Assembly: GCA_020632445.1 (NCBI GenBank)
Contig: JACKFN010000003.1
Location: 81,118-145,117, forward strand
DNA from: Candidatus Nomurabacteria bacterium
GTDB lineage: Bacteria > Patescibacteriota > Patescibacteriia > Magasanikbacterales > UBA922
Reading direction: 5' to 3'
DNA length: 64,000 bases
The position numbers and the translations under genes were made by a program. A model generated the notes under the pieces. It was given only the letters and a program-made list of their open reading frames with translations, was not told where the DNA came from and searched no databases. This document shows positions 34,585 to 62,196 of this stretch, one piece after another (position 1 is the stretch's first letter; each line of letters begins with the position of its first letter).

Positions 34585-34611
34585 GCCGACCTGTGGTAGG
34601 TACAGGTCGGC
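34585..34611 (-). terminator. GC-rich hairpin GCCGACCTGT-ggtaggt-ACAGGTCGGC immediately 3' of the island gene (T-run about 20 nt further on)
   Basis: Perfect 10-bp inverted repeat read directly; non-canonical spacing to the U-tract. Confidence 0.4.
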
Positions 34612-34648
34612 GCCGTTGGTGGGGTAGCTCGCCGTGACGAGTGGCGGA

Positions 34649-37669
<3,021 letters not shown>

Positions 37670-37943
37670 CCGATCTGAACACCATCAACACTTCAAACTT
37701 CATCCCCGACACTCAAAGTGGTGCGTGTAGGGTGATTTCGTATCTGACCTGATTGCCAGAGTAAACGAAACACGCTTGGGGTCCCAGCCCTGCAACCGCC
37801 CTTTTCGCTATGAGCGGAAGGAGCTGGGCAGGCACCAACTGACATTTGATCAGCTTATGCCTGCCTGCAGGGTGGAAAAGTTCAAAGAATTTTGAAATTT
37901 TTTGTAAAGATCCTGTATTGCACGTATTGTACAATAACAGGTA

Positions 37944-50755: not shown

Positions 50756-51790
50756 ATGAAACAGCTCAAATCATATTTTAAGGCCGCCATAGACAACAGT
50801 GCATCTGATTTGCACATGGTTGCAGGTGAAGTTCCTATGCTTCGTATTGAGGGGAAGCTCGTCGAGCTACAAGACGATGAGCTTTCTGACAAAGAGCTTG
50901 AGACGGCACTTATGGCACTACTGTCCGCTGACCAAAAAAGGCGTTTTGATGAAGAAAAGGAGCTTGACATGGGGTATGAGCAAGGTGATGCTCGATTTCG
51001 TATTAATTTGCATCGACAGCGTGGAAAAATTGCTATGGCAGCGCGTTTGATTCCAAAAGACATTCCTACGCCGGAGCAACTTCGTTTTGAGCCTGCCTTG
51101 CATGATTTCACTCAGCTCTTGGACGGTTTGGTGCTGGTGGTCGGTCCTACGGGAAACGGTAAATCAACAACGCTTGCATCGATGATCGAGCAGATTAATC
51201 AGACCCGTAAGTCACATATCATAACTGTCGAAGACCCGGTTGAGTTTGTTTTTGAAAATAAAGAAAGCCTCATTGAGCAAAGAGAAATCGGAGAAGACAC
51301 TCCTTCATTTGCGTCGGCGCTCAAGCATGTCTTACGTCAGGATCCTAATGTGATTTTGGTCGGTGAGATGCGCGATCCAGAGACGATTGCTACAGTGCTC
51401 ACGGCCGCGGAAACTGGACATTTGGTGTTTTCTACCTTGCACACGTCGTCGGCAGCAGAGGCTGTTGAGCGTATTGTCGATGTTTTTGATGGTGCCAAGC
51501 AAAAGCAAATACTTATTCAGCTTGGAGCTGTACTTCGTGGAGTTGTGGCACAGCAACTTTTAACTACAACAGACGGCAAGCGTGTTGCGGCGCGTGAAAT
51601 ATTGGTCAACTCTCCAGCAGTTTCTAATTTAGTTCGTGAAAATAATATTGCGCAAATTCAAAGCGCTATTCAAACTGGAGCTAAAGAAAACATGGTTACT
51701 ATGGAGAACTCGGTAAAAGCACTCCTGTCTGAAGGACTCATTAGTGAAGAAACTGCACAAAAGCGTATTGGAAGACAGCGAAAGGTATAA
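50756..51790 (+). CDS. pilT: Type IV pilus retraction ATPase (twitching motility protein)
   Basis: 344 aa; Walker A GPTGNGKST; ITVEDPVEF; size fits PilT rather than PilB. Confidence 0.8.
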   Translation: MKQLKSYFKAAIDNSASDLHMVAGEVPMLRIEGKLVELQDDELSDKELETALMALLSADQKRRFDEEKELDMGYEQGDARFRINLHRQRGKIAMAARLIPKDIPTPEQLRFEPALHDFTQLLDGLVLVVGPTGNGKSTTLASMIEQINQTRKSHIITVEDPVEFVFENKESLIEQREIGEDTPSFASALKHVLRQDPNVILVGEMRDPETIATVLTAAETGHLVFSTLHTSSAAEAVERIVDVFDGAKQKQILIQLGAVLRGVVAQQLLTTTDGKRVAAREILVNSPAVSNLVRENNIAQIQSAIQTGAKENMVTMENSVKALLSEGLISEETAQKRIGRQRKV

Positions 51791-51796
51791 CCGGTT

Positions 51797-53593
51797 TTGC
51801 GATTGAGTATGTCCGCATATTACGCCGCGTATACAAATAAAACTAAGCGAGAAGGTCGCGTCGATAGCGACCTTCGTCTTCGTGTACTGGCACTTGCCAG
51901 TCTTTTTGTTGCTATACTCATGATTGTAAGGCTTTTGGTGGTCATGGTGTTCCAGCATGATTTCTACACAAAGCTTGCACAAGGCTCACATGAAATGTAT
52001 GCGCAACTTTTTCCACTTCGTGGTCAAATATTTGTGCAGGATTCGCGTAGCAAAGAGACATTTGCTGTTGCTGTCAATAAGTACTTTTATTCTCTCTTTG
52101 CCGACTCGAGGCAAATTTCTTCGGAAGAAGAGGCTGACGATATCGCCACTCGGCTTGGTAATATTTTGCAATACGATGATGAGAAAAAGCTACAATTGTT
52201 TTTGGAGCTGAGTAAGCGAGATGACCCGTATGTGCCAATAGAGGCAAAGGTAACGGAGCAGGTAAAGGCACAGGTTGAATCACTTGCCCTTTCAGGTATC
52301 CACTTTGTAAAAAAGCCCTACCGTATTTATCCAGAACATGGCTTTGCCGCTCAGACAATTGGTTTTCTGGGAAAAGATGAACAGGGACATGATGTAGGAA
52401 GGTATGGTATAGAGGGGTATCATCAAGATATCCTCGATGGTGAAGGGGGGTTTGTGTCTGGGGCACGCGCTGCGGGTGGGGGTTTTATTTCTTTTGCTGG
52501 TTTAGATTTTCAGCCGGCGCAAAATGGATCTGATATTACCCTTACTATAGACAGAGGTGTGCAAGATGCATCGTGTACCTTTTTGCGTGAAGCTATGGAG
52601 TATTATGAGTCACAGTCAGCATCTCTGGTGATTATGGAGCCGCAGACTGGTGCGATCCGGGCCATGTGTTCGCTTCCTGATTTTGATTTGAATGAGTATT
52701 CTCAGGTAGATGACATTTCTGTGTACAACAATTCAACCATTTTTACCCCCTACGAGCCTGGTTCTGTGTTTAAGCCTATTCCAATTGCCTCGGCAGTAAA
52801 TGAAGGGCTCATTGGTCCTGAAACGTATTTTTATGACACTGGTAAGGTGGAGGGGGTGTGTGAAAAGCCAATACAAAATGCCGATCAGCACGTGTATGAA
52901 GATACGGATATGACCGGAGTATTGATCGATTCTATAAATACTGGTATGGTACACACGGCCGACTTACTCGGAAAAAAACGCTTTTTGCGCTATATTGAGG
53001 ATTTTGGCTTTGGCGTAAAAACCGGAGTCGGACTTGATACTGAGGCTGCGGGAAATATTCAGACACTCAGCATCAATAGTGGTGATGATCTGGATTGTTA
53101 TGGCGCGACGGCCTCATTTGGTCAGGGAATTACGGTGACACCGCTGCAGCTCGCCGCCGCCTACTCTGCTATTGCCAATGGTGGATACCTTCCAAGACCG
53201 TATGTGGTTGAGTCTGTCAAATTTGCAGATGGAAAGCAGGAAAGAACAAAACCAGAAATGATTCGCCAAGTACTTGAAAGCCAATCTGCATCACTGACAT
53301 CTGCAATGCTTGTGAGTGTGATAGATGGTGGTCATGGAAAGGCAGCGGGTGTACCTGGATATTATGTTGCTGGTAAAACTGGTACCGCGCAGATACCAGG
53401 AAAAGGTGGGTACACAAGTGAAACCATCCATTCGTTTGTTGGATTTGCTCCAATAGAAAATCCAAGGTTCGTTCTTGTCGTGAAACTTGAAAAGCCACAA
53501 CGTGGTGGGTATTCATCAAGTACGGCTGCGCCAACATTTGGAAAAATTGTTAAATTTTTGCTTCAATATTATAGAGTACCACCAACACGATAG
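51797..53593 (+). CDS. Class B penicillin-binding protein (peptidoglycan D,D-transpeptidase, PBP2/FtsI-like)
   Basis: N-terminal TM; SVFKP (SxxK), SINTG (SxN), KTGTAQ (KTG). Confidence 0.75.
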   Translation: MRLSMSAYYAAYTNKTKREGRVDSDLRLRVLALASLFVAILMIVRLLVVMVFQHDFYTKLAQGSHEMYAQLFPLRGQIFVQDSRSKETFAVAVNKYFYSLFADSRQISSEEEADDIATRLGNILQYDDEKKLQLFLELSKRDDPYVPIEAKVTEQVKAQVESLALSGIHFVKKPYRIYPEHGFAAQTIGFLGKDEQGHDVGRYGIEGYHQDILDGEGGFVSGARAAGGGFISFAGLDFQPAQNGSDITLTIDRGVQDASCTFLREAMEYYESQSASLVIMEPQTGAIRAMCSLPDFDLNEYSQVDDISVYNNSTIFTPYEPGSVFKPIPIASAVNEGLIGPETYFYDTGKVEGVCEKPIQNADQHVYEDTDMTGVLIDSINTGMVHTADLLGKKRFLRYIEDFGFGVKTGVGLDTEAAGNIQTLSINSGDDLDCYGATASFGQGITVTPLQLAAAYSAIANGGYLPRPYVVESVKFADGKQERTKPEMIRQVLESQSASLTSAMLVSVIDGGHGKAAGVPGYYVAGKTGTAQIPGKGGYTSETIHSFVGFAPIENPRFVLVVKLEKPQRGGYSSSTAAPTFGKIVKFLLQYYRVPPTR

Positions 53594-53603
53594 CATTTTA
53601 TTT

Positions 53604-54893
53604 ATGAAACGAATTCTTCAAATAGTATTGCGAATACTTGCCCGTCGGATTGTCGGGAAATATCAACCCGAAATTGTAGGTATTACTGGGTCGGTGGGAA
53701 AGACAAGTGCCAAAGAAGTTGCCACAAAGATTTTGGCATATCGTTTTGCGGTACGAGGAAGTGCTGGAAATTATAACAATGAAATCGGTTTGCCACTTAC
53801 CGTTATTGGAAAGGAAAATCCTGGGAAGTCGGTGATTGGATGGCTTGCTGTTATTTTTCGTGCAGTGTCTTTGTTGTTGGTAAAACATGATGATTATCCT
53901 GAGATACTGGTGCTCGAAATGGGCGCTGATCATCCTGGTGATATTGCGTATCTCACAAGTATTGCAAGACCAACCATTGGAGTGGTAACAGCCATTGCCC
54001 CAGCGCATATGGAGTTTTTCAAAACTATTCGCAAACTGGTACGCGAAAAGCAAAAAATTGTGAGCTGCCTTGATAAAACCGGTGTAGCGGTTCTCAATAT
54101 CGATGATGATAATGTATGGGGGATGAATACCAAGACCGATGCGGAGGTTGTTACCTATGGAAAAAGTGAGGATGCCCAGGTTCGTGCAACTGATATAGGT
54201 ATTACCACGGACCATCAAACGCGTTGGCCAAAAGGAATGACTTTCAAGCTTCATTACAAAGGAAGTATTGTGCCGGTGCATATTGATGGAGTAATTGGTG
54301 ATCATTTTGTATATTCTGTGCTCGTAGGGGCAACGGTTGGTTTGTCACTTGGTATGAATTTGGTGGAGATTAGTGAGTCACTTTCAAGTATGGAAATGAT
54401 GCCAGGACGAATGAGACTTCTCCCTGGTATTAAGGAAACCTTTTTGATAGACGATACGTATAATTCTTCGCCGAAGGCAGTGAAAAAGGCGATAGATGCC
54501 CTTAAGTCATGCCAGGTGAGTCACCAAACACGAAAAATTATCGTACTTGGTGATATGCTCGAACTTGGCAAGCAATCTGGGCTTGAACATGCACAAGTGG
54601 GAGTACACATTGCTAAAGCACAATTTGATTATTTTTTTGCTGTGGGTTCTATGATGAAGAAGGCTGCAAAGTCGGCACAGGCAGAAGGAATGCCAGAGGA
54701 CAAGATTCGAATATTTGACAATGCCGTCGATGCAGGAAGGCATTTGCAGGAACTATTGCATCCAGGAGACATGGTTTTGATCAAAGGGTCTCAAGGAGTT
54801 CGCTGTGAAAAGATCGTCAAAGAAGTAATGGCAGAGCCACTTCGGTCTAAAGAACTTTTGGTCAGACAGAGTGAGAAGTGGCTTGAAGAATAA
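53604..54893 (+). CDS. murF: UDP-N-acetylmuramoyl-tripeptide--D-alanyl-D-alanine ligase
   Basis: IVGITGSVGKTSAKE P-loop; Mur ligase domain order; ATG at 53604 preferred (ORF track starts 53487). Confidence 0.75.
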   Translation: MKRILQIVLRILARRIVGKYQPEIVGITGSVGKTSAKEVATKILAYRFAVRGSAGNYNNEIGLPLTVIGKENPGKSVIGWLAVIFRAVSLLLVKHDDYPEILVLEMGADHPGDIAYLTSIARPTIGVVTAIAPAHMEFFKTIRKLVREKQKIVSCLDKTGVAVLNIDDDNVWGMNTKTDAEVVTYGKSEDAQVRATDIGITTDHQTRWPKGMTFKLHYKGSIVPVHIDGVIGDHFVYSVLVGATVGLSLGMNLVEISESLSSMEMMPGRMRLLPGIKETFLIDDTYNSSPKAVKKAIDALKSCQVSHQTRKIIVLGDMLELGKQSGLEHAQVGVHIAKAQFDYFFAVGSMMKKAAKSAQAEGMPEDKIRIFDNAVDAGRHLQELLHPGDMVLIKGSQGVRCEKIVKEVMAEPLRSKELLVRQSEKWLEE

Positions 54894-55617: not shown

Positions 55618-55646
55618 TTGCCACGGGTAGATTGGTGGGATATAAT
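55618..55646 (+). promoter_or_regulatory. Near-consensus sigma70 promoter TTGCCA-17 bp-TATAAT for the mraZ operon; two GTGGG repeats follow at 55655 and 55665 (10-bp spacing), candidate MraZ boxes
   Basis: Read directly in the sequence. Confidence 0.5.
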
Positions 55647-55722: not shown

Positions 55723-55769
55723 AGAGCGCATCTTACAAGAATGGTATCCATTTTTGTAAGATGCGCTCT
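55723..55769 (+). promoter_or_regulatory. Perfect 16-bp inverted repeat AGAGCGCATCTTACAA-15 nt-TTGTAAGATGCGCTCT in the mraZ leader
   Basis: Read directly; lies about 30 nt upstream of the mraZ ATG. Confidence 0.55.
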
Positions 55770-55798: not shown

Positions 55799-56230
55799 AT
55801 GTTTATTGGTGAATATTCACACAACCTAGACGAAAAAGGCAGACTGGCTGTCCCAAAAAAATTTCGGACAGCGCTTCTCAAAGGTGCTGTAGTGACTCGT
55901 GGTCTTGATAACTGCTTGTTTCTCTACACCAAAAAAGAGTGGGAAGTCCTCGCCAGCAAGCTTGCGAGTTTGCCCTTTTCACAAAAGAATGCACGGGCCT
56001 TTGCTCGTCTTATGCTCGCAGGGGCTATGGACGTCAGCCTTGATAAGCAGGGAAGAATTATCTTGCCTGATTATTTGAGACAGTTTGCGTCCCTTGGTAA
56101 GGAGATCATCGTGGCAGGTCTTTATAACCGCCTCGAACTTTGGGACAGTGCGAGTTGGGATAAGTACAAGAAGGCTGCTGAGCAGAAAAGCAACGACATT
56201 GCTGAGCAAATGTTCGAGCTGGGAATTTAG
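55799..56230 (+). CDS. mraZ: Transcriptional regulator MraZ
   Basis: MFIGEYSHNLDEKGRLAVPKKFR; duplicated MraZ domain. Confidence 0.8.
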   Translation: MFIGEYSHNLDEKGRLAVPKKFRTALLKGAVVTRGLDNCLFLYTKKEWEVLASKLASLPFSQKNARAFARLMLAGAMDVSLDKQGRIILPDYLRQFASLGKEIIVAGLYNRLELWDSASWDKYKKAAEQKSNDIAEQMFELGI

Positions 56231-56232
56231 GT

Positions 56233-57123
56233 ATGAGACATGTACCAGTACTGGCAAACGAACTCGTAGACGGACTTGAACTCAAACCAGGTGAAGTAGT
56301 GGTTGACTGCACTCTTGGTGATGCCGGTCACGCAGCTCTGGTGCTGCCGCGTATTATCCCGGGAGGAAAGCTGATTGGCATTGACGCTGACCCAGAAGCC
56401 ATTTTGCGAGCTAAGGACTTTCTTTATGAAGTATCTGAAAATGTTATCTTTGAGAGATCATATTTTCAGGAACTTGCAGAAATTCTCGACAGAAATGAAC
56501 TTGAACAGGTAGACGTTATCTATGCAGACCTTGGATGGTCAACTCCTCAGTTTGAGGAGCGAAAGCGGGGATTTTCATTTCAAAAGATCGATGAAAAGCT
56601 TGATATGCGATTTTGCGGGGCTTCCTGTGGTAAAGCGCTTACAGCAAGCGAGATCGTTAATACTTGGGATGAAGATGAGATTGCAAAAATCCTTCGGCTC
56701 TATGGAGAAGAAAAGTTTGCAAGCAAGATAGCACAGGCCATAGTCCAAAAGCGCGAAGAGTATGATCTTGAAACCGTAGGAGACCTGGTAGATGTCGTTG
56801 TTTCAGTCTACAAACGTATGCGGGCATCAAGAGAAAAGATCCATCCAGCCACGAGAACCTTCCAAGCATTGCGCATAGCCGTCAATCAAGAGCTTGATCA
56901 ATTAAAATCCCTTTTGAACATCGCGACTGAGCGTCTCAAACCTGGTGGAAGACTTGCAATTATTACCTTTCATTCTCTGGAGGATCGCATGGTGAAGCAT
57001 TTTTTTCAGGCGCAATCGCAGCTTGAAGTGGTCAACAAAAAACCAATTATCCCATCTGATGACGAACTCTCACAAAACAACCGTGCGCGAAGTGCTAAAC
57101 TTCGCATAGCAAGGAAACTATGA
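56233..57123 (+). CDS. rsmH: 16S rRNA (cytosine1402-N4)-methyltransferase
   Basis: HVPVLANELVDGL...VVDCTLGDAGHA. Confidence 0.8.
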   Translation: MRHVPVLANELVDGLELKPGEVVVDCTLGDAGHAALVLPRIIPGGKLIGIDADPEAILRAKDFLYEVSENVIFERSYFQELAEILDRNELEQVDVIYADLGWSTPQFEERKRGFSFQKIDEKLDMRFCGASCGKALTASEIVNTWDEDEIAKILRLYGEEKFASKIAQAIVQKREEYDLETVGDLVDVVVSVYKRMRASREKIHPATRTFQALRIAVNQELDQLKSLLNIATERLKPGGRLAIITFHSLEDRMVKHFFQAQSQLEVVNKKPIIPSDDELSQNNRARSAKLRIARKL

Positions 57124-57464
57124 GAAAGTTTAATGCAAAATCAACGATGAAGGAAAAGCGTGAGCGCGCTATGAAGTTTCTTCTTGGGTGCACATTTCGA
57201 GTGTGCCTTTTGGTGTTTGTACTCGTGCTTGGAGTATGTCACATTCGGCAAATGAGTGAAAACGCGACTGAGGGATATGCTGTAGGAAATCTTCAGTCTG
57301 AGCTTGAGATGCTTTCACAAGAAGTAGAAACCGTAGAATCGGAAATTGCACTCAATCAGTCAATGACCAGTGTAAAAGAGCGTCTTGCAGGAATGAACTT
57401 TGTTTCTGCTGATCAGATTTCTTATTTGGATGGTTCTGGCTCACTGGCAGTGCTTGACAGATAG
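57120..57464 (+). CDS. ftsL: Cell division protein FtsL-like (small bitopic membrane protein)
   Basis: Position after rsmH with ATGA overlap; single TM plus coiled-coil region. Confidence 0.5.
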   Translation: MRKFNAKSTMKEKRERAMKFLLGCTFRVCLLVFVLVLGVCHIRQMSENATEGYAVGNLQSELEMLSQEVETVESEIALNQSMTSVKERLAGMNFVSADQISYLDGSGSLAVLDR

Positions 57465-57530: not shown

Positions 57531-57890
57531 ATGGGAATTCTTATTTTTCAAAAACTTGTTGTAGAATTTTTTCTTGATTTTGTGTACTTTCCGTTGTGGT
57601 GGTACACCAAAGGAGCGCTTAAGGCGTTTTGCGCGTACAAAAACGCGCTTGTGGCGGTAAACTTTCGTCTGGCGCCAGGGCTTTGGCTCAAAAACATTTT
57701 CACGCCGATGTATGGGCAACGTGATTGGGAAGGTCGTCTTGTAAGTGTCTTTATCCGGTTTTGGAATGTAATATTTCGTGGGGTACTCTTGGTTATTGCA
57801 TGGACGGTGTATACCATCATTATTATGGCCTATTTCTTGCTTTTTCCTCTGATATTTTTTCTGCTTATTTCAAGTAGTATTACCCTATGA
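57531..57890 (+). CDS. Hypothetical polytopic membrane protein, translationally coupled (ATGA) to the Clp ATPase
   Basis: ORF with several hydrophobic segments. Confidence 0.4.
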   Translation: MGILIFQKLVVEFFLDFVYFPLWWYTKGALKAFCAYKNALVAVNFRLAPGLWLKNIFTPMYGQRDWEGRLVSVFIRFWNVIFRGVLLVIAWTVYTIIIMAYFLLFPLIFFLLISSSITL

Positions 57891-60640
57891 ATTTTACGCT
57901 TTATCCAAAGTTGCGTAAAAGCACTTGCAGTCACTGCAAAGGTGCCGGTGCCGTGCACAATCGTAAATGTCCATCGTGTCATGGCTATTCTGTTGCCATA
58001 GGTTGGAAAAAACATATTTTGTACTACGGTCAGCCACTTTCTCGCTACATGATTGCCGTAAAAAAGGGGAGAAGAATCATGCACACGGTACAGTTTCTGA
58101 TTGGACTGCTTTTCTTTTTGACATTTTTGGGAATGTTTTTTTACATTTTTACCCAAAGCCCGGTGCGGGCACAACTGTTTACGCTGAGCTACTGGGTAGA
58201 TTTTGGTGGATATGCTAAGTGGATGGTGGGAATTGCGTTGTTTTTTTTGTTGTATTTCGTATACAAGATGATTGCTTGGCATCGTAAAGTTACTCCCATT
58301 GCGCAAGTTGAGCTTGCAGATGTTTCCTTGGTAGGGCAGGAGTTTGAATCAATACCAGACGACTGGCATGATATTCTCGCGCATAAGAAAAGGGAGTTTG
58401 TTGATATTTCTCAGAGTTTTACTGATGAGGTGGTGAAAATTGTTGAGGATGCGTATTTTTACGCAGATAAGTACAACGCAAAGGAAGTAACACCGGTGCA
58501 CATGTTCTATAGTCTGCTGCATTCCTACAAGGTTAGAAGTGTCTTTATTCGAATTGGTTTCCCTGCCGATGCTCTCTACAAGGCGCTAGAGCGATCTTTT
58601 GTAAAGGAAACCGTAGAGTGTGTTCCTGTGGTTTCAGACGATGTCCAAGATATCCTCTACTATGCGTATTTTGAGGCTGTACATTCAAGACAAAAATTTA
58701 TTCACGTCACAGAGCTTTTATTGGCTACCATCTACAAATCAGAGAGTCTGCAAAGTTTTTTGTATGAACTTGGAGTTGGTGATGCTAAACTCAAAAACGT
58801 CGTCGAATGGGTGCGTATACAAGAATATATTTCACAGGAACGCATGGACCTAGTCAAAATGGCAAGCACCAGAAACAAATATGGACTTGATAGGGCTATG
58901 ACGGCAGTAGCTACGCCATATCTCAATTCTTTTAGTCAGGATTTGACCATGCAAGCACGATATGGGAATCTTCCTCCATGTGTTGCACGTAGCAAAGAAA
59001 TCGACGAGATTTTTCGAGTCGTTGAGGGCGGAAGAAGCAATGTTATTTTGGTCGGTGAAACAGGAGTTGGGAAGATGAGTATCATAGAAGGAATTGCGCA
59101 GCGGATGGTTGAAGAGAAAGTACCGGGGCGTCTTGGAGATAAGCGGCTTGTGCAGCTGTCGGTTTCTTCACTTTTGGCCGGAACCACGATTTCTGGTGCG
59201 CAAGAAAGATTGATTCGTATTATGCATGAGGTGAGCCGCGCAGGTAATATCATTCTTTTTATTAATCATTTGCATGATTTGATTCATCATAGTGGCGCGG
59301 AAAATGGAATGGATGTTTCCAAAACTCTCGCAGAGTATTTGCAGGCAGGAAATTTTTTTGTATTTTCTACCTCTACAACACAGGGGTACAACAAACATAT
59401 CATGAATAGCGCGGTAAGCAAGGTATTTACCCGTGTTTTGGTAGAAGAGGTAGACGAAAACCAAGCCATTCAGATTCTTGAATCCAAAGTACCGTATTTG
59501 GAATACAAGCTCAAAGCATATTTTTCTTACAATGCCCTTGAAAATTCCGTGAAATTGGCAAGAAGATTTTTGCATGACCAGTATCTTCCTGAAAATGCTA
59601 TCGAACTTCTGACCGAGGCGGGAAGTCTGTGTAAGGCAGAAAATGGGCCAAATAGTTTTGTTTCCGCTGAACATGTTGCGCGTGTTGTCAGTGACAAGAC
59701 CGGTGTTCCGGCAACGAGCATCACGCAAGAAGAGTCCGAAAAACTCCTCACACTTGAATCAGAACTGCATAAACGAGTTATCGGGCAGGAAAGAGCTGTG
59801 GAACTTGTTTCCAGTGCATTGCGGCGCGCACGCGCCGAGGTTCGTTCACTCAAACGTCCAATCGCCAATTTTCTTTTTTTGGGACCAACGGGTGTTGGAA
59901 AAACCGAACTCGCCAAAACCATTGCTGAGGTGTACTTTGGTCAGGAAGAGCGGATGATTCGTATTGATATGAGTGAATTCCAAGACAAGAGTGCTATTCA
60001 TCGACTGATTGGAAGCCCGGGTCAGCAGGGGACGGGACTTTTAACCGAGGCGGTCCGTTTGCAGCCGTTTTCACTCGTGCTTTTTGATGAGCTTGAAAAG
60101 GCAGATCCTGATATTTTGAATCTCTTCCTGCAAGTATTTGATGATGGTCACCTGACCGATAGTGTTGGGCGGAAAATTGATTTTACCAATGCGATTATCA
60201 TTGCAACCTCCAATGCTGGTACTTCCTATGTGCAACAGGCTCTCGGTCAGGGCAGAGACATTGACACGGTGCTCAATGAAATTATTCATGGAGAGTTGCA
60301 AAAATACTACCGTCCAGAGTTTCTGAATCGTTTTGATGGTATAGTGTTATTTAAACCACTTGATAGGAAGCAGATCAAGCAAATTGCTGGTTTGATGATT
60401 GCTGGTATTGCCAAGAATCTCGACGAGCAACGTGGTATTGCCTTGAAGGTGAACGATGAAACATTGGAAATGCTTTGCGAGACCGGATACAATCCTGAGT
60501 TTGGGGCAAGACCGATGCGACGAGCGGTGCAGGATATGATAGAAAACAAGATTGCTGATTTGCTTTTGAAAAACGAAGTGCAAAGGAATGATGCCATTGT
60601 GTTTTGTGGAAAAAGTGGGGTGAGAGTTGAGCATACATAA
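57887..60640 (+). CDS. Clp/Hsp100 double-AAA+ ATPase (ClpA/ClpC-like) with N-terminal CxxC-CxxC zinc ribbon, two TM helices, Clp_N repeats, degenerate D1 and canonical D2
   Basis: CSHCKG...CPSCHG; hydrophobic 70-130; D1 Walker A GETGVGKMS and Walker B ILFINHLH (consensus GVGKT and DELH); D2 GPTGVGKTELAK and LFDELEKA. Confidence 0.75.
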   Translation: MNFTLYPKLRKSTCSHCKGAGAVHNRKCPSCHGYSVAIGWKKHILYYGQPLSRYMIAVKKGRRIMHTVQFLIGLLFFLTFLGMFFYIFTQSPVRAQLFTLSYWVDFGGYAKWMVGIALFFLLYFVYKMIAWHRKVTPIAQVELADVSLVGQEFESIPDDWHDILAHKKREFVDISQSFTDEVVKIVEDAYFYADKYNAKEVTPVHMFYSLLHSYKVRSVFIRIGFPADALYKALERSFVKETVECVPVVSDDVQDILYYAYFEAVHSRQKFIHVTELLLATIYKSESLQSFLYELGVGDAKLKNVVEWVRIQEYISQERMDLVKMASTRNKYGLDRAMTAVATPYLNSFSQDLTMQARYGNLPPCVARSKEIDEIFRVVEGGRSNVILVGETGVGKMSIIEGIAQRMVEEKVPGRLGDKRLVQLSVSSLLAGTTISGAQERLIRIMHEVSRAGNIILFINHLHDLIHHSGAENGMDVSKTLAEYLQAGNFFVFSTSTTQGYNKHIMNSAVSKVFTRVLVEEVDENQAIQILESKVPYLEYKLKAYFSYNALENSVKLARRFLHDQYLPENAIELLTEAGSLCKAENGPNSFVSAEHVARVVSDKTGVPATSITQEESEKLLTLESELHKRVIGQERAVELVSSALRRARAEVRSLKRPIANFLFLGPTGVGKTELAKTIAEVYFGQEERMIRIDMSEFQDKSAIHRLIGSPGQQGTGLLTEAVRLQPFSLVLFDELEKADPDILNLFLQVFDDGHLTDSVGRKIDFTNAIIIATSNAGTSYVQQALGQGRDIDTVLNEIIHGELQKYYRPEFLNRFDGIVLFKPLDRKQIKQIAGLMIAGIAKNLDEQRGIALKVNDETLEMLCETGYNPEFGARPMRRAVQDMIENKIADLLLKNEVQRNDAIVFCGKSGVRVEHT

Positions 60641-60663
60641 CAGACTTTTCAAAAAACAAAAAG

Positions 60664-60686
60664 AGCCTTGAAGAAGGCTTTTTTTG
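60664..60686. terminator. Bidirectional terminator AGCCTT-gaag-AAGGCT flanked by A/T runs
   Basis: Read directly, between convergent clp and the small higher-GC ORF. Confidence 0.55.
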
Positions 60687-60708
60687 GATTGGGAAGGTGG
60701 GTGTGTAC

Positions 60709-61041
60709 CTAGGAGGCCGTACGAAGGGTCCGTTCATCGTCGTAGATGAGCGTCATGGTTTTCAGGCCAGGGCAGCGATTACCGCCATCGAACTCAAGAG
60801 CGAGATTCACCAGCATGGCTGCATCAACGCGGTTGCTGAGTTTGCGCATCTCATCGTTGCTGAGGCTCAGTTCAGACCAACCCAGCCCTACGCAGGTCAC
60901 AGGTCCTCGCTGAGCGATCGTGATCACATCGGGCATCGGCGTGATGCCCGCCCGCTGCAAACTGGACAATATGAGATCTCGCATTTTTGCCCCCCGGTTG
61001 TTGCCTGATATACATATATCATAAAAGGCCTTGAAAGTCAA
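60709..61041 (-). CDS. Hypothetical protein in a ~57% GC patch (start possibly the internal Met at 60984)
   Basis: ORF only; local GC is clearly above its surroundings. Confidence 0.3.
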   Translation of the reverse strand: MTFKAFYDICISGNNRGAKMRDLILSSLQRAGITPMPDVITIAQRGPVTCVGLGWSELSLSNDEMRKLSNRVDAAMLVNLALEFDGGNRCPGLKTMTLIYDDERTLRTAS

Positions 61042-61116
61042 AGCGCTTTAAGATTGGGAGTTGATTTCTGCCGAATTTTTTGCTACGCTACAGGGACTAA
61101 AAGCCTTCAATGAATT

Positions 61117-62196
61117 TTGTTTCCTATGAGTGATTATCTCGGATTCGGAATATTTGCCTTTACACTTTCCTTTTTTTGCACTTTCTGCACGATTTGGATC
61201 ATGCAAAAATTCCAGATTGTCGACAAACCAAAGACAGACGAACGCAAAAGACACAAAAAAACAACTCCGCTTGGAGGTGGAATTGCGATATTTGTGTCTT
61301 TTTTTGTGATGATGCTGCTGGCCACAAAGGATGGGTTTTTGGGACAGGAGATTGGGATACGGAGCATGTGGGGGATGTTTCTTGGGGGCTGTATCTTGAT
61401 GCTTGGGGGTATAGTTGATGACAAGTACAACCTACCAGCAAAGTACCAAATCATAGCACCCATTTTTGCGGCTCTTACCATTTTGTGGTTTGGAATTGGT
61501 CCACATCAAATTACCAATCCCTGGGGGGGAGTTGTCGATCTATCTGGAATAACGATATCAGTGGGTGCCCTTGGTAACATTGTTTTATTTGCTGACATCT
61601 TGGTATTTGCCTGGCTCATGGGGATGATGTTTACGACCAAGTTTCTTGATGGGCTGGATGGATTGGTCTCAGGGGTGGTTATCATTGGAGCCGGAGTACT
61701 TTTTTTTCTTTCGCGTCAGCCAGAGTGGTACCAAAGTGAAATGGCCATGATTTCTATTATTTTTGCTGGTGCGGTTCTTGGATTCCTAGTATTTAATTTT
61801 CATCCAGCAAAGATATTCCTTGGAGAAGGGGGGAGCCTCTTTTTGGGGTTTGTGCTTGGGTGTCTGGCAATTCTTTCCGGAGGGAAAATCGCTACCACTC
61901 TCCTGGTGGTTGGTGTTCCAGCCCTTGATGTACTTCGTGTGATCATCAGGCGGTTTCAAAAGCAGAAGTCCATCTTTGTGGGGGATAGAGAACATCTGCA
62001 TTATTTGCTGGTGGATATGGGGTTTGGGCATCGTCAGACCGTGTACTTGCTCTACGGGATATCGCTTCTTTTGGGAATGAGCGCACTTTTTCTGCAGTCT
62101 CGCCAGAAGCTTTTGGCATTGGTGCTCATATTTGTACTTATGCTCCTGATTGGGGTGTGGTTTTCCGCTAAAGATAAAGAAAAAACAAATCTCTAG
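61117..62196 (+). CDS. WecA/TagO-type polyprenyl-phosphate N-acetylhexosamine-1-phosphate transferase (MraY/WecA GT4 family)
   Basis: DKPKTDERKRHKKTTPLGGG; FLDGLDGLVSG; C-terminal VLDVLRVIIRRF...GDREHLHYLL resembles WecA rather than MraY. Confidence 0.65.
   Translation: MFPMSDYLGFGIFAFTLSFFCTFCTIWIMQKFQIVDKPKTDERKRHKKTTPLGGGIAIFVSFFVMMLLATKDGFLGQEIGIRSMWGMFLGGCILMLGGIVDDKYNLPAKYQIIAPIFAALTILWFGIGPHQITNPWGGVVDLSGITISVGALGNIVLFADILVFAWLMGMMFTTKFLDGLDGLVSGVVIIGAGVLFFLSRQPEWYQSEMAMISIIFAGAVLGFLVFNFHPAKIFLGEGGSLFLGFVLGCLAILSGGKIATTLLVVGVPALDVLRVIIRRFQKQKSIFVGDREHLHYLLVDMGFGHRQTVYLLYGISLLLGMSALFLQSRQKLLALVLIFVLMLLIGVWFSAKDKEKTNL

What the first reader, a model, noticed from the sequence alone, without database searches (positions are those of the whole stretch)
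57887..60640. Membrane-anchored Clp/Hsp100 ATPase with an N-terminal zinc ribbon and a catalytically degenerate first AAA+ domain
The N-terminus has CxxC-x13-CxxC, then two hydrophobic helices (about residues 70-130), then Clp_N repeats. D1 has Walker A GETGVGKMS (Met where Thr/Ser is invariant) and Walker B ILFINHLH (Asn-His in place of Asp-Glu), which predicts no ATP hydrolysis in D1. D2 is canonical (GPTGVGKTELAK, LFDELEKA). The small membrane protein at 57531-57890 is translationally coupled upstream. A membrane-tethered Clp unfoldase with only one active ring is not a standard ClpA/B/C architecture.
Basis: seen in the sequence. Interest (0 to 1): 0.6.

Follow-up and report, generated by a model that had tools for sequence, protein, structure and literature searches.

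The report
Membrane-anchored Clp ATPase, one live ring
This gene encodes an undescribed membrane-tethered member of the Clp/Hsp100 protein-remodelling ATPases, found only in the tiny Patescibacteria, in which the first ATPase ring is dead, the usual substrate-gripping tyrosines are gone, and a small membrane protein is always encoded just upstream.

Summary
ORF 57887-60640 (+) encodes a 917-aa class-I Clp/Hsp100 protein. It has an N-terminal CxxC-x10-CxxC zinc ribbon of the DnaJ CxxCxGxG type, a two-helix membrane hairpin, a divergent Clp N-domain, a degenerate D1 and a canonical D2.

These features belong to a family, not to one sequence. At least 547 species-level genomes carry relatives, and every named one is Patescibacteria.

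- D1 has also lost its arginine finger and its pore-loop tyrosine.
- The D2 pore loop GYVG is replaced by a shortened GQQG.
- There is no M-domain.
- The ClpP-docking loop is absent, so this is not a Clp protease subunit.

The 119-aa membrane protein upstream overlaps the Clp start (ATGA). It is adjacent in 81 of 83 related loci and also accompanies the more distant relatives. In this clade the pair sits in the operon mraZ-rsmH-ftsL-small protein-Clp-WecA-like transferase.

Best reading: a ClpP-independent hexamer working at the membrane face, driven by D2 alone, with D1 as an assembly ring and the small protein as partner. It probably remodels envelope or division membrane proteins. The architecture is well supported. 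The function is inferred. I found no publication on the family.

The parts
57531..57890 (+). Small partner membrane protein, 119 aa. It has a conserved N-terminal region (D..YFPLWWY..G and W.KNIF.PMYGQ.D..G...S...R) and a hydrophobic C-terminal anchor at about residues 82-117.
   Evidence: ORF. ATGA overlap with the Clp start. Adjacent to the Clp gene in 81 of 83 loci, with a median gap of 3 nt and 67 of 81 at 15 nt or less. Also present in the distant loci L084-L088. AlphaFold2 pLDDT 90, two long helices at 2-47 and 66-118. Invariant residues. No Pfam, NCBIfam, PHROG or PADLOC hit.
57887..60640 (+). Membrane-anchored Clp/Hsp100 ATPase, 917 aa.
   Evidence: AlphaFold2 mean pLDDT 84. Foldseek top hits are ClpC, ClpB and Hsp104.
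57920..57988 (+). Zinc ribbon, residues 12-34, CxxCxGxG-x6-CxxCxG (DnaJ-type single zinc centre).
   Evidence: Cysteines at 14, 17, 28 and 31. Cys is present in 86-91 of 120 sequences, and most of the rest are N-terminal gaps. Pfam DnaJ_CXXCXGXG E=9e-5, below the gathering score. Beta-hairpins in the model.
57989..58072 (+). Conserved juxtamembrane segment, residues 35-62 (family consensus FLYWGEPLTRYHI..R.ARR).
   Evidence: Mean column identity 0.63, higher than the zinc ribbon itself at 0.45. Retained in the Falkowbacteria relative that lacks the zinc ribbon.
58073..58159 (+). Transmembrane helix 1, residues 63-91.
   Evidence: Kyte-Doolittle maximum 2.46. Model helix at 53-90.
58217..58282 (+). 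Transmembrane helix 2, residues 111-132. Basic residues flank the cytoplasmic ends of both helices.
   Evidence: Kyte-Doolittle maximum 1.94. Model helix at 109-131.
58283..58396 (+). Flexible tether, residues 133-170.
   Evidence: pLDDT about 51 around residues 141-150. Lowest family conservation, 0.33.
58397..58870 (+). Divergent Clp N-domain, residues 171-328, eight helices.
   Evidence: A family profile hits only Clp/Hsp100 N-domains in the PDB. Helices in the model. The ClpA model TIGR02639 aligns from residue 180.
58922..59656 (+). D1 AAA+ module, residues 346-590, a pseudo-ATPase. Walker A GETGVGKMS (59054-59080), pore loop AGTTISGAQER (59177-59209), Walker B ILFINHLH (59252-59275), lost Arg finger AVSKVFTRV (59411-59437).
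   Evidence: Alignment to ClpC. Family census. Coordinates checked.
59762..60601 (+). D2 AAA+ module, residues 626-905, catalytically intact. Walker A GPTGVGKTELAK (59882-59917), Walker B VLFDELEKA (60077-60103), Arg finger PEFLNRFD (60314-60337), sensor 2 GARPMRR (60503-60523).
   Evidence: These positions are invariant or nearly so across 120 sequences. Mean column identity 0.87.
60011..60049 (+). Non-canonical D2 pore loop GSPGQQGTGLLTE. Canonical is GAPPGYVGxxxGGQLTE. It is four residues shorter and has no aromatic residue.
   Evidence: alignments. (Q at the second position 97 of 120, flanking Gly 120 of 120). (65 of 81 wider-family members lack the aromatic).
60212..60277 (+). Position of the ClpP-docking loop. 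It is ClpB-like, with no [LIV]-G-[FL] tripeptide.
   Evidence: Seven residues are deleted relative to the S. aureus ClpC 'AGFGG' loop. The best and nearly gapless alignment is to T. thermophilus ClpB D2.
55799..57464 (+). Upstream operon genes: mraZ (55799-56230), rsmH (56233-57123), ftsL-like (57120-57464).
   Evidence: Pfam families of the orthologues in L001 and L003. FtsL_Actino weak hit. Synteny in 72-74 of 83 loci. Promoter-like site at 55618-55646, 11 of 12 matches.
61117..62196 (+). Downstream WecA/MraY-family (GT4) polyprenyl-phosphate sugar-phosphate transferase.
   Evidence: Pfam Glycos_transf_4 E=6e-28. Closer to WecA (117 bits) than to MraY (64 bits), and below both cut-offs. Downstream of the Clp gene in 71 of 83 loci and in Buchanan- and Falkowbacteria.

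Best explanation
The gene encodes a ClpP-independent, membrane-tethered Clp/Hsp100 double-ring ATPase specific to Patescibacteria.

Shown or directly predicted:
- Each subunit is held in the cytoplasmic membrane by an N-terminal helical hairpin.
- A DnaJ-type zinc ribbon and the whole N-domain/D1/D2 body lie on the cytoplasmic side, joined to the hairpin by a tether of about 40 residues.
- D1 keeps its fold and, in this clade, the P-loop lysine. It lacks every residue needed for hydrolysis and for gripping substrate.
- D2 has every catalytic residue.

Inferred:
- D1 acts as a nucleotide-binding or purely structural assembly ring.
- D2 is the only motor.
- The protein works as a two-component unit with the co-translated small membrane protein. 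That protein's conserved cytoplasmic region would be an adaptor, regulator or dedicated client.
- The job is remodelling or extraction of membrane-embedded envelope or division proteins at the membrane surface, topologically like FtsH or Pex1/Pex6-Pex15 but without a protease.
- Because the pore-loop Tyr-Val is replaced by Gln-Gln, the action on the client is probably not processive aromatic-paddle threading.
For: Architecture and motifs.

D1 is degenerate but conserved: mean column identity 0.75 against 0.87 for D2.

D2 Walker A, Walker B, Arg finger and sensor 2 are invariant in 120 of 120 sequences.

No ClpP loop: the region is seven residues shorter than in ClpC and nearly gapless against ClpB D2.

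No M-domain: about 124 residues are missing relative to a canonical paralogue.

Partner gene: ATGA overlap, adjacent in 81 of 83 loci, median gap 3 nt, and present beside distant family members in Buchanan-, Falkow- and Kerfeld-type lineages.

Operon context mraZ-rsmH-ftsL-X-Clp-GT4.

The family is large and under purifying selection: at least 547 species genomes and 219 clusters at 50% identity carrying the N-terminal module.

Role of the canonical pore-loop residues (ClpB K250/Y251/R252 and Y653/V654): PMC6546751.
Against: There is no experimental evidence for any family member, and I found no paper.

The link to the division and cell-wall cluster holds only in the Magasanikbacteria-type clade. 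In the other lineages mraZ, rsmH and ftsL are not adjacent, and GT4 is missing in L086 and L087. These genomes are broadly syntenic (rplU, recR, ybaB and dnaB are also conserved nearby), so neighbourhood is weak functional evidence.

Loss of the gripping residues in both rings argues against extraction by threading.

Nucleotide binding by D1 is untested. Some relatives have lost even the Walker A lysine.

The membrane topology and the hexameric state are predictions.
Confidence: 0.5

Rival explanations
1. It is a nucleotide-dependent scaffold or switch rather than a translocase. The D2 ATPase cycle would drive assembly and disassembly, or conformational signalling, of a membrane complex containing the small partner, and nothing would pass through the central channel.
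For: Both rings lack the canonical substrate-gripping residues. 65 of 81 wider-family members lack an aromatic in a shortened D2 pore loop. D1 is a pseudo-ATPase. The ClpB structure shows that the Tyr residues contact substrate, and Y653A has a more severe in vivo phenotype than Y251A (PMC6546751).
Against: Some family members keep PPGY[AS]G in D2 together with the same partner gene (Buchananbacteria L084; P0237, whose close relatives are Kerfeldbacteria). The ancestral function therefore probably involved threading. The D2' loop and channel-lining segments remain conserved, and a conserved aliphatic residue (L/I at position 718) sits in the loop.
Confidence: 0.25
2. It is the motor of a membrane translocon. 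This would resemble Plasmodium HSP101 in PTEX or chloroplast Hsp93/ClpC at the Tic complex. The twelve hairpin helices of the hexamer, together with the small protein's helices, would form or gate a channel for export or insertion of proteins.
For: It is an Hsp100 permanently at the membrane with a strictly co-encoded small membrane protein. HSP101 is among the sequence relatives in the PDB (6e10 and 6e11).
Against: The anchor is N-terminal, which would put the D1 entry side, not the D2 exit, next to the membrane. The external loop between the helices is short and poorly conserved (0.35). The pore-loop aromatics are lost in this clade. No secretion-related genes are consistently adjacent.
Confidence: 0.1
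3. It is an ordinary ClpA/ClpC-type unfoldase that feeds ClpP for regulated proteolysis at the membrane.
For: Databases annotate relatives as 'ATP-dependent Clp protease ATP-binding subunit ClpC/ClpA'. Like ClpA, it has no M-domain.
Against: The ClpP-docking tripeptide loop is absent and the region is ClpB-like. Scores are far below the ClpA and ClpC-type thresholds. No clpP lies in the window or in about 1 Mb of related loci, although this says little about the whole genome.
Confidence: 0.05
4. It is a ClpB-like disaggregase that cooperates with DnaK and is merely anchored to the membrane.
For: The best NCBIfam hit is ClpB, and D2 is most similar to T. thermophilus ClpB D2. The DnaJ-type zinc motif hints at binding of non-native proteins.
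Against: It lacks the M-domain through which DnaK engages ClpB (established knowledge; absence shown). Both pore-loop tyrosines are lost, and D1 is inactive. A Falkowbacteria genome keeps a separate, fully canonical Hsp100 next to it.
Confidence: 0.05

Closest known systems
ClpB / Hsp104 (class-I Hsp100 disaggregases)
   Same: N-domain plus two AAA+ modules. The D2 sequence is closest to ClpB D2. No ClpP-docking loop. D2 carries a full catalytic set.
   Different: No M-domain coiled coil. D1 is catalytically dead. Both pore-loop tyrosines are replaced. It has an N-terminal zinc ribbon and a membrane hairpin. It scores 563 bits against the 1232 cut-off of TIGR03346.
ClpA
   Same: N-domain, D1 and D2 are linked directly without an M-domain. 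TIGR02639 aligns end to end from residue 180.
   Different: No IGL ClpP-docking loop. D1 is inactive, whereas ClpA D1 binds and hydrolyses ATP. It is membrane anchored. It scores 501 bits against the 993 cut-off.
ClpE / ClpX (zinc-binding N-termini)
   Same: An N-terminal four-cysteine zinc module precedes the AAA+ part.
   Different: Here the motif is of the DnaJ CxxCxGxG type and is followed by two transmembrane helices. ClpE and ClpX are soluble ClpP partners with docking loops (the ClpE and ClpX properties are from established knowledge).
FtsH
   Same: Two N-terminal transmembrane helices tether a hexameric AAA+ ring to the cytoplasmic face of the membrane. This is similarity of topology only.
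   Different: FtsH has one AAA+ module, an aromatic pore loop and a fused metalloprotease. It belongs to a different AAA+ clade.
Pex1/Pex6 with Pex15/PEX26 (and, more loosely, Msp1/ATAD1)
   Same: A double-ring AAA+ with an inactive D1 assembly ring and an active D2, working at a membrane together with a small tail-anchored partner. This is an analogy from established knowledge.
   Different: No homology beyond the AAA+ fold. Pex1/Pex6 keeps aromatic D2 pore loops and is recruited to the membrane rather than integral to it.
Plasmodium HSP101 (PTEX) and chloroplast Hsp93/ClpC at the Tic complex
   Same: Hsp100 proteins that act at a membrane without ClpP, or in addition to it. HSP101 is among the sequence hits.
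   Different: Those proteins are peripheral, keep canonical pore loops and have two active rings.

Membership tests
Clp/Hsp100 class I (two AAA+ modules) | Tandem AAA+ modules (AAA, AAA_lid_9, AAA_2, ClpB_D2-small) following a Clp N-domain | tested here: met
   Pfam AAA_2 2e-50, ClpB_D2-small 3e-22, AAA_lid_9 2e-9. PDB ClpC 3e-139. Foldseek probability 1.0 to ClpC and ClpB. N-domain profile against the PDB.
ClpB (TIGR03346) | Whole-protein score above the curated cut-off | tested here: not met
   562.7 bits against 1232.1.
ClpB (TIGR03346) | Long coiled-coil M-domain inserted in the D1 small subdomain | tested here: not met
   A gap of about 124 residues relative to a canonical paralogue. The D1 and D2 alignments to ClpC abut at residues 583-605. 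The model shows a direct D1-D2 connection.
ClpB (TIGR03346) | Pore-loop tyrosines (KYR in D1, GYVG in D2) | tested here: not met
   T-I-S and G-Q-Q-G. Reference residues from PMC6546751.
ClpB (TIGR03346) | Absence of a ClpP-docking loop | tested here: met
   Nearly gapless alignment to T. thermophilus ClpB D2 in this region.
ClpA (TIGR02639) | Whole-protein score above the cut-off, and an IGL ClpP-docking loop | tested here: not met
   501.2 bits against 993.15. The loop reads QQALGQGRD with no [LIV]-G-[FL].
ClpC | Short M-domain (MecA-binding) and a VGF-type ClpP loop | tested here: not met
   Residues 428-462 of S. aureus ClpC have no counterpart, and seven residues are deleted at its 'AGFGG' loop.
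Active AAA+ module (applied to D1) | Walker A GK[ST], Walker B hhhhDE, and a trans-acting Arg finger | tested here: not met
   GKM, INH and SKVF in this protein. In the family: Met 107 of 120, Glu 0 of 120, Arg finger absent.
Active AAA+ module (applied to D2) | Walker A GK[ST], Walker B hhhhDE, Arg finger and sensor 2 | tested here: met
   GPTGVGKT, LFDELEK, PEFLNRFD and GARPMRR, invariant in 120 of 120.
DnaJ-type zinc finger (PF00684) | CxxCxGxG repeats forming a zinc centre, scoring above the gathering threshold | tested here: inconclusive
   One pair of repeats only: CSHCKGAG...CPSCHG. E=9e-5, 23 bits against 32.7. Zinc binding is not testable here.
Known anti-phage defence systems (PADLOC) | Full-length match to a defence protein model, and a defence-island context | tested here: not met
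   Only partial matches of the D2 module to DolB and PDC-M37B. No hit for the partner. The context is a division and cell-wall operon.

The most novel reading that the evidence does not exclude
The small membrane protein and the membrane-anchored Hsp100 together form a previously unknown envelope machine specific to Patescibacteria. In this reading, a wide-bore, tyrosine-less D2 motor under a ring of 12 or more transmembrane helices handles a non-canonical client at the membrane. The client could be a folded or membrane-embedded division or cell-wall protein, or something that is not an unfolded polypeptide. The work would be coupled to cell-envelope biogenesis. This would be a new mode of action for an Hsp100, not a variant disaggregase.
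Probability: 0.15. Interest if true: 0.85.

Novelty: new variant of a known kind. Interest (0 to 1): 0.6.

Why it matters
Hsp100/Clp proteins are textbook soluble threading machines. Their two ATPase rings and pore-loop tyrosines are regarded as essential.

This family is large, strongly conserved and confined to Patescibacteria. It keeps the scaffold but is integral to the membrane, runs on one ring, has replaced the gripping residues in both rings, and is locked to a dedicated small membrane partner. In many genomes it sits inside the division and cell-wall operon.

It offers a natural experiment on what a double-ring AAA+ can do without canonical pore loops. It is also a candidate for a lineage-specific envelope or division factor in organisms whose cell biology is almost unknown. 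The predictions are directly testable with recombinant protein.

Tried and rejected
- Pfam, NCBIfam, PHROGs and PADLOC gave nothing for the small partner protein. PADLOC hits for the ATPase are generic matches to ClpB-D2-like modules and were rejected as evidence of defence.
- Seven literature searches found no paper on this family. They covered Patescibacteria or CPR with ClpC or ClpB, membrane-anchored Hsp100, the dcw cluster in CPR, and degenerate NBD1.
- A tblastn for ClpP, using the E. coli sequence written from memory, found nothing in the window or the fetched loci. This covers only a small part of each genome and does not show that ClpP is absent.
- I considered that an aromatic just before LTE (GYLTE in many relatives) might be a shifted pore-loop tyrosine. 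I rejected this because canonical E. coli ClpB also has GGYLTE there (from memory), and the window clade has Leu or Ile at that position.
- I considered that neighbourhood alone proves a division role. I down-weighted it because the whole region is syntenic and the link to mraZ and ftsL is specific to this clade.
- Rfam found no RNA family in the region.
Full report
**1. Observation**

The window has about 42% G+C. The open reading frame 57887-60640 on the + strand encodes 917 residues. It is identical to an NCBI protein named 'AAA family ATPase [Candidatus Nomurabacteria bacterium]' from a 148-kb contig.

- Cysteines at 14, 17, 28 and 31. The spacing is CxxC-x10-CxxC, not x13.
- Two strongly hydrophobic segments at 63-91 and 111-132.
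- D1 Walker A GETGVGKMS (390-398) and Walker B ILFINHLH (456-463).
- D2 Walker A GPTGVGKTELAK and Walker B LFDELEKA.

The assignment is not an alignment artefact. phmmer against solved structures pairs GETGVGKMS with GEPGVGKTA and ILFINHLH with ILFIDELH of S. aureus ClpC.

**2. Domain anatomy**

Pfam finds AAA_2, ClpB_D2-small, AAA and AAA_lid_9. It also gives a sub-threshold DnaJ_CXXCXGXG match on residues 11-33.

An AlphaFold2 model built on 90 homologues has mean pLDDT 84. It shows the following:
- small beta-hairpins for the zinc ribbon;
- a long helix at 53-90 and a second helix at 109-131;
- a low-confidence tether at about 132-160;
- an eight-helix bundle at 180-328;
- two AAA+ modules joined directly.

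Foldseek returns ClpC, ClpB and Hsp104.

The N-domain is too divergent for Pfam's Clp_N model in this sequence. A profile of the family's residues 165-335, however, hits only Clp/Hsp100 N-domains in the PDB: Hsp104 at 5e-9, and ClpC 3fes at 1.6e-7 over both repeats.

Basic residues flank the cytoplasmic ends of both hydrophobic helices. This places the zinc ribbon and the ATPase body on the same side, which must be the cytoplasm. That topology is inferred.

**3. The oddities are family traits, and there are more of them**

A search of 5.8 billion proteins found several hundred full-length relatives of about 915 aa at 50-60% identity. Their names are Magasanikbacteria, Parcubacteria or Patescibacteria. 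A scan of one genome per GTDB species confirmed 547 relatives.

In a 120-sequence alignment, D1 shows:
- Met after the Walker A Lys in 107 of 120 sequences.
- Asn at the Walker B Glu position in 107 of 120, and never Glu.
- Asp kept at the Walker B Asp position in only 12 of 120.
- G-[ST]-V-[LF] in place of the arginine-finger motif ERRF.
- DQxLP in place of the sensor-2 motif DRFLP.
- AGTT[VI]SGAQER in place of the D1 pore loop AGxKYRGEFEER.

In ClpB, K250, Y251 and R252 of that D1 loop clamp the substrate (PMC6546751).

D2 is the opposite. Walker A, Walker B, the Arg finger (PEFLNRFD) and sensor 2 (GARPMRR) are invariant in 120 of 120 sequences. The D2 pore loop is the exception. The canonical GAPPGYVGxxxGGQLTE is four residues shorter and reads GxPGQQGTG[LI]LTE. 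In ClpB, Y653 and V654 of that loop grip the polypeptide.

D1 is still conserved, with mean column identity 0.75 against 0.87 for D2. It is therefore a maintained pseudo-ATPase and not a decaying domain.

**4. Not a ClpP partner and not ClpB**

At the position of the ClpP-docking loop the protein is seven residues shorter than S. aureus ClpC and lacks its AGFGG motif. That region aligns best, and almost without gaps, to T. thermophilus ClpB D2.

There is no M-domain. A canonical Hsp100 encoded next to a Falkowbacteria family member has about 124 extra residues between D1 and D2.

NCBIfam scores are about half the cut-offs for ClpB, ClpA, ClpV, ClpG and ClpK. By those criteria the protein belongs to none of the named subfamilies.

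**5. A conserved two-gene module**

The 119-aa ORF at 57531-57890 ends in ATGA, which overlaps the Clp start. In 83 related loci its homologue lies immediately upstream in 81. The two exceptions are cut by contig ends. The median gap is 3 nt, and 67 of 81 gaps are 15 nt or less.

The small protein has no match in Pfam, NCBIfam, PHROGs or PADLOC. It has invariant residues in two motifs, YFPLWWY..G and W.KNIF.PMYGQ.D..G...S...R. Its predicted structure has pLDDT 90 and consists of two long helices, the second ending in a hydrophobic stretch of about 35 residues. I read it as a cytoplasmic domain with a C-terminal membrane anchor. That reading is inferred.

Homologues of the small protein led to more distant lineages: Buchananbacteria, Falkowbacteria, a clade whose named relatives are Kerfeldbacteria, and unnamed clades. 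In each, a membrane-anchored Clp of 861-927 aa follows. In one case two genes are inserted between the pair.

**6. The wider family**

A full HMMER scan with residues 1-345 found 219 clusters at 50% identity that carry this N-terminal module. Among 77 full-length representatives plus three relatives from fetched loci:
- D2 Walker A and B are canonical in nearly all (a few read GKTQ or GKTA, and one outlier, P0332, has a degenerate D2).
- None has an M-domain or a ClpP loop.
- D1 ranges from nearly canonical (GEPGVGKTA, ILFIDD, RRFQ) to completely degenerate. Some have lost even the P-loop lysine.
- The D2 pore loop ranges from PPGY[AS]G to short glycine-rich loops without an aromatic; including the window's own protein, 65 of 81 lack it.

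The window's clade is therefore a derived state of a family that has repeatedly relaxed D1 catalysis and the canonical pore loop, while keeping the D2 engine, the membrane anchor and the partner.

**7. Genomic context**

In the window the gene order is:
- pilT-like, ftsI-like PBP, murF;
- a promoter-like site at 55618-55646;
- mraZ, rsmH, ftsL-like, small protein, Clp;
- a 477-nt gap;
- a GT4 transferase;
- a perfect promoter-like site, rplU and a terminator.

The GT4 enzyme scores better against WecA (117 bits) than against MraY (64 bits). It is below both cut-offs.

The order from mraZ to GT4 is kept in most Magasanikbacteria-type loci (gene calls). Outside that clade, mraZ, rsmH and ftsL are not adjacent and GT4 is sometimes absent. 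Downstream housekeeping genes are also syntenic. I therefore treat the envelope and division association as suggestive only.

**8. Mechanism**

Shown:
- the architecture;
- the catalytic competence pattern, with D1 off and D2 on;
- the absence of the ClpP and DnaK coupling elements;
- the obligatory partner gene.

Inferred:
- A hexamer is tethered by twelve helices.
- D1 serves as the assembly ring, as in other double-ring AAA+ proteins with one inactive tier, such as Pex1/Pex6 and NSF (established knowledge).
- D2 is the sole motor.
- The zinc ribbon and N-domain face the membrane, where clients or the partner's cytoplasmic domain are engaged.

I favour remodelling or extraction of envelope or division membrane proteins without degradation (confidence about 0.5 overall, and lower for the specific client class). 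The main rival is a non-threading switch or scaffold (0.25), motivated by the lost pore-loop aromatics. A PTEX-like translocon motor (0.1), a ClpP-coupled unfoldase (0.05) and a DnaK-coupled disaggregase (0.05) fit the evidence less well.

**9. Novelty and score**

The protein class is known, and the sequences are in databases under generic Clp names. I found no description of this combination in seven literature searches. The combination is an integral membrane anchor, a DnaJ-type zinc ribbon, a pseudo-ATPase D1, tyrosine-less pore loops, no M-domain, no ClpP loop and a dedicated small membrane partner. I rate it a new variant of a known kind, with interest 0.6.

Noticed in passing
window 34600-37700: The G+C content jumps to 0.60-0.66 against about 0.42 elsewhere. 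ORF 34649-37669 (-), 1006 aa, carries Cu-binding MopE repeats and a C-terminal FGE-sulfatase domain. The mirror ORF on the + strand has no hits. It looks like a horizontally acquired gene, or an assembly chimera, inside a polysaccharide-biosynthesis island.
   Followed up: partly
window 55724-55768: A perfect 20-bp stem-loop lies in the mraZ leader, between the promoter-like site (55618-55646) and the mraZ start (55799). The scan flagged it as terminator-like. It could be an attenuator or an operator.
   Followed up: no
L085 3757-6408 (-): The Falkowbacteria genome encodes, next to the membrane-anchored Clp, a second Hsp100 of 883 aa. It has fully canonical motifs, a long ClpB-like M-domain and also an 'AIGF' ClpP-type loop, which is an unusual combination.
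   Followed up: no
window 59999-60001 (residue 705) and the family alignment: Position 705, two residues before the LIG that precedes the D2 pore loop, is Tyr in 112 of 120 close relatives (His in this protein). In the wider family it is Tyr or Phe only in members that lack the pore-loop aromatic (16 of 65 against 0 of 16). It may be a compensatory aromatic.
   Followed up: partly
window 60641-61116: A 477-nt gap separates the Clp gene from the GT4 gene. It holds overlapping ORFs on both strands (60697-61008 +, 60709-61041 -) and weak terminator-like sites. Relatives have 60-1000 nt here, and sometimes a small reverse-strand gene.
   Followed up: no
window as a whole; loci L004-L083: NCBI labels the source as Nomurabacteria, but all close relatives of this gene and its synteny block are Magasanikbacteria. 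Many third-party MAG records in the species set carry the title 'uncultured Gammaproteobacteria' although they hold this Patescibacteria-specific operon. Both look like labelling problems.
   Followed up: no
window 50756-54893: A PilT-family type IV pilus retraction ATPase (TIGR01420, 413 bits) lies directly upstream of the ftsI-like PBP and murF. All three precede mraZ rather than following ftsL, so the division and cell-wall cluster is rearranged.
   Followed up: no
L085 10370-11926; L088 10209-12119: In Falkowbacteria the downstream GT4 transferase is fused to a QueH (epoxyqueuosine reductase) domain. In L088, GT4 and QueH are neighbouring genes. TGT (queuosine insertion) lies upstream of the pair in L084, L086 and L087. 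This is a recurring but unexplained queuosine-related neighbourhood.
   Followed up: no
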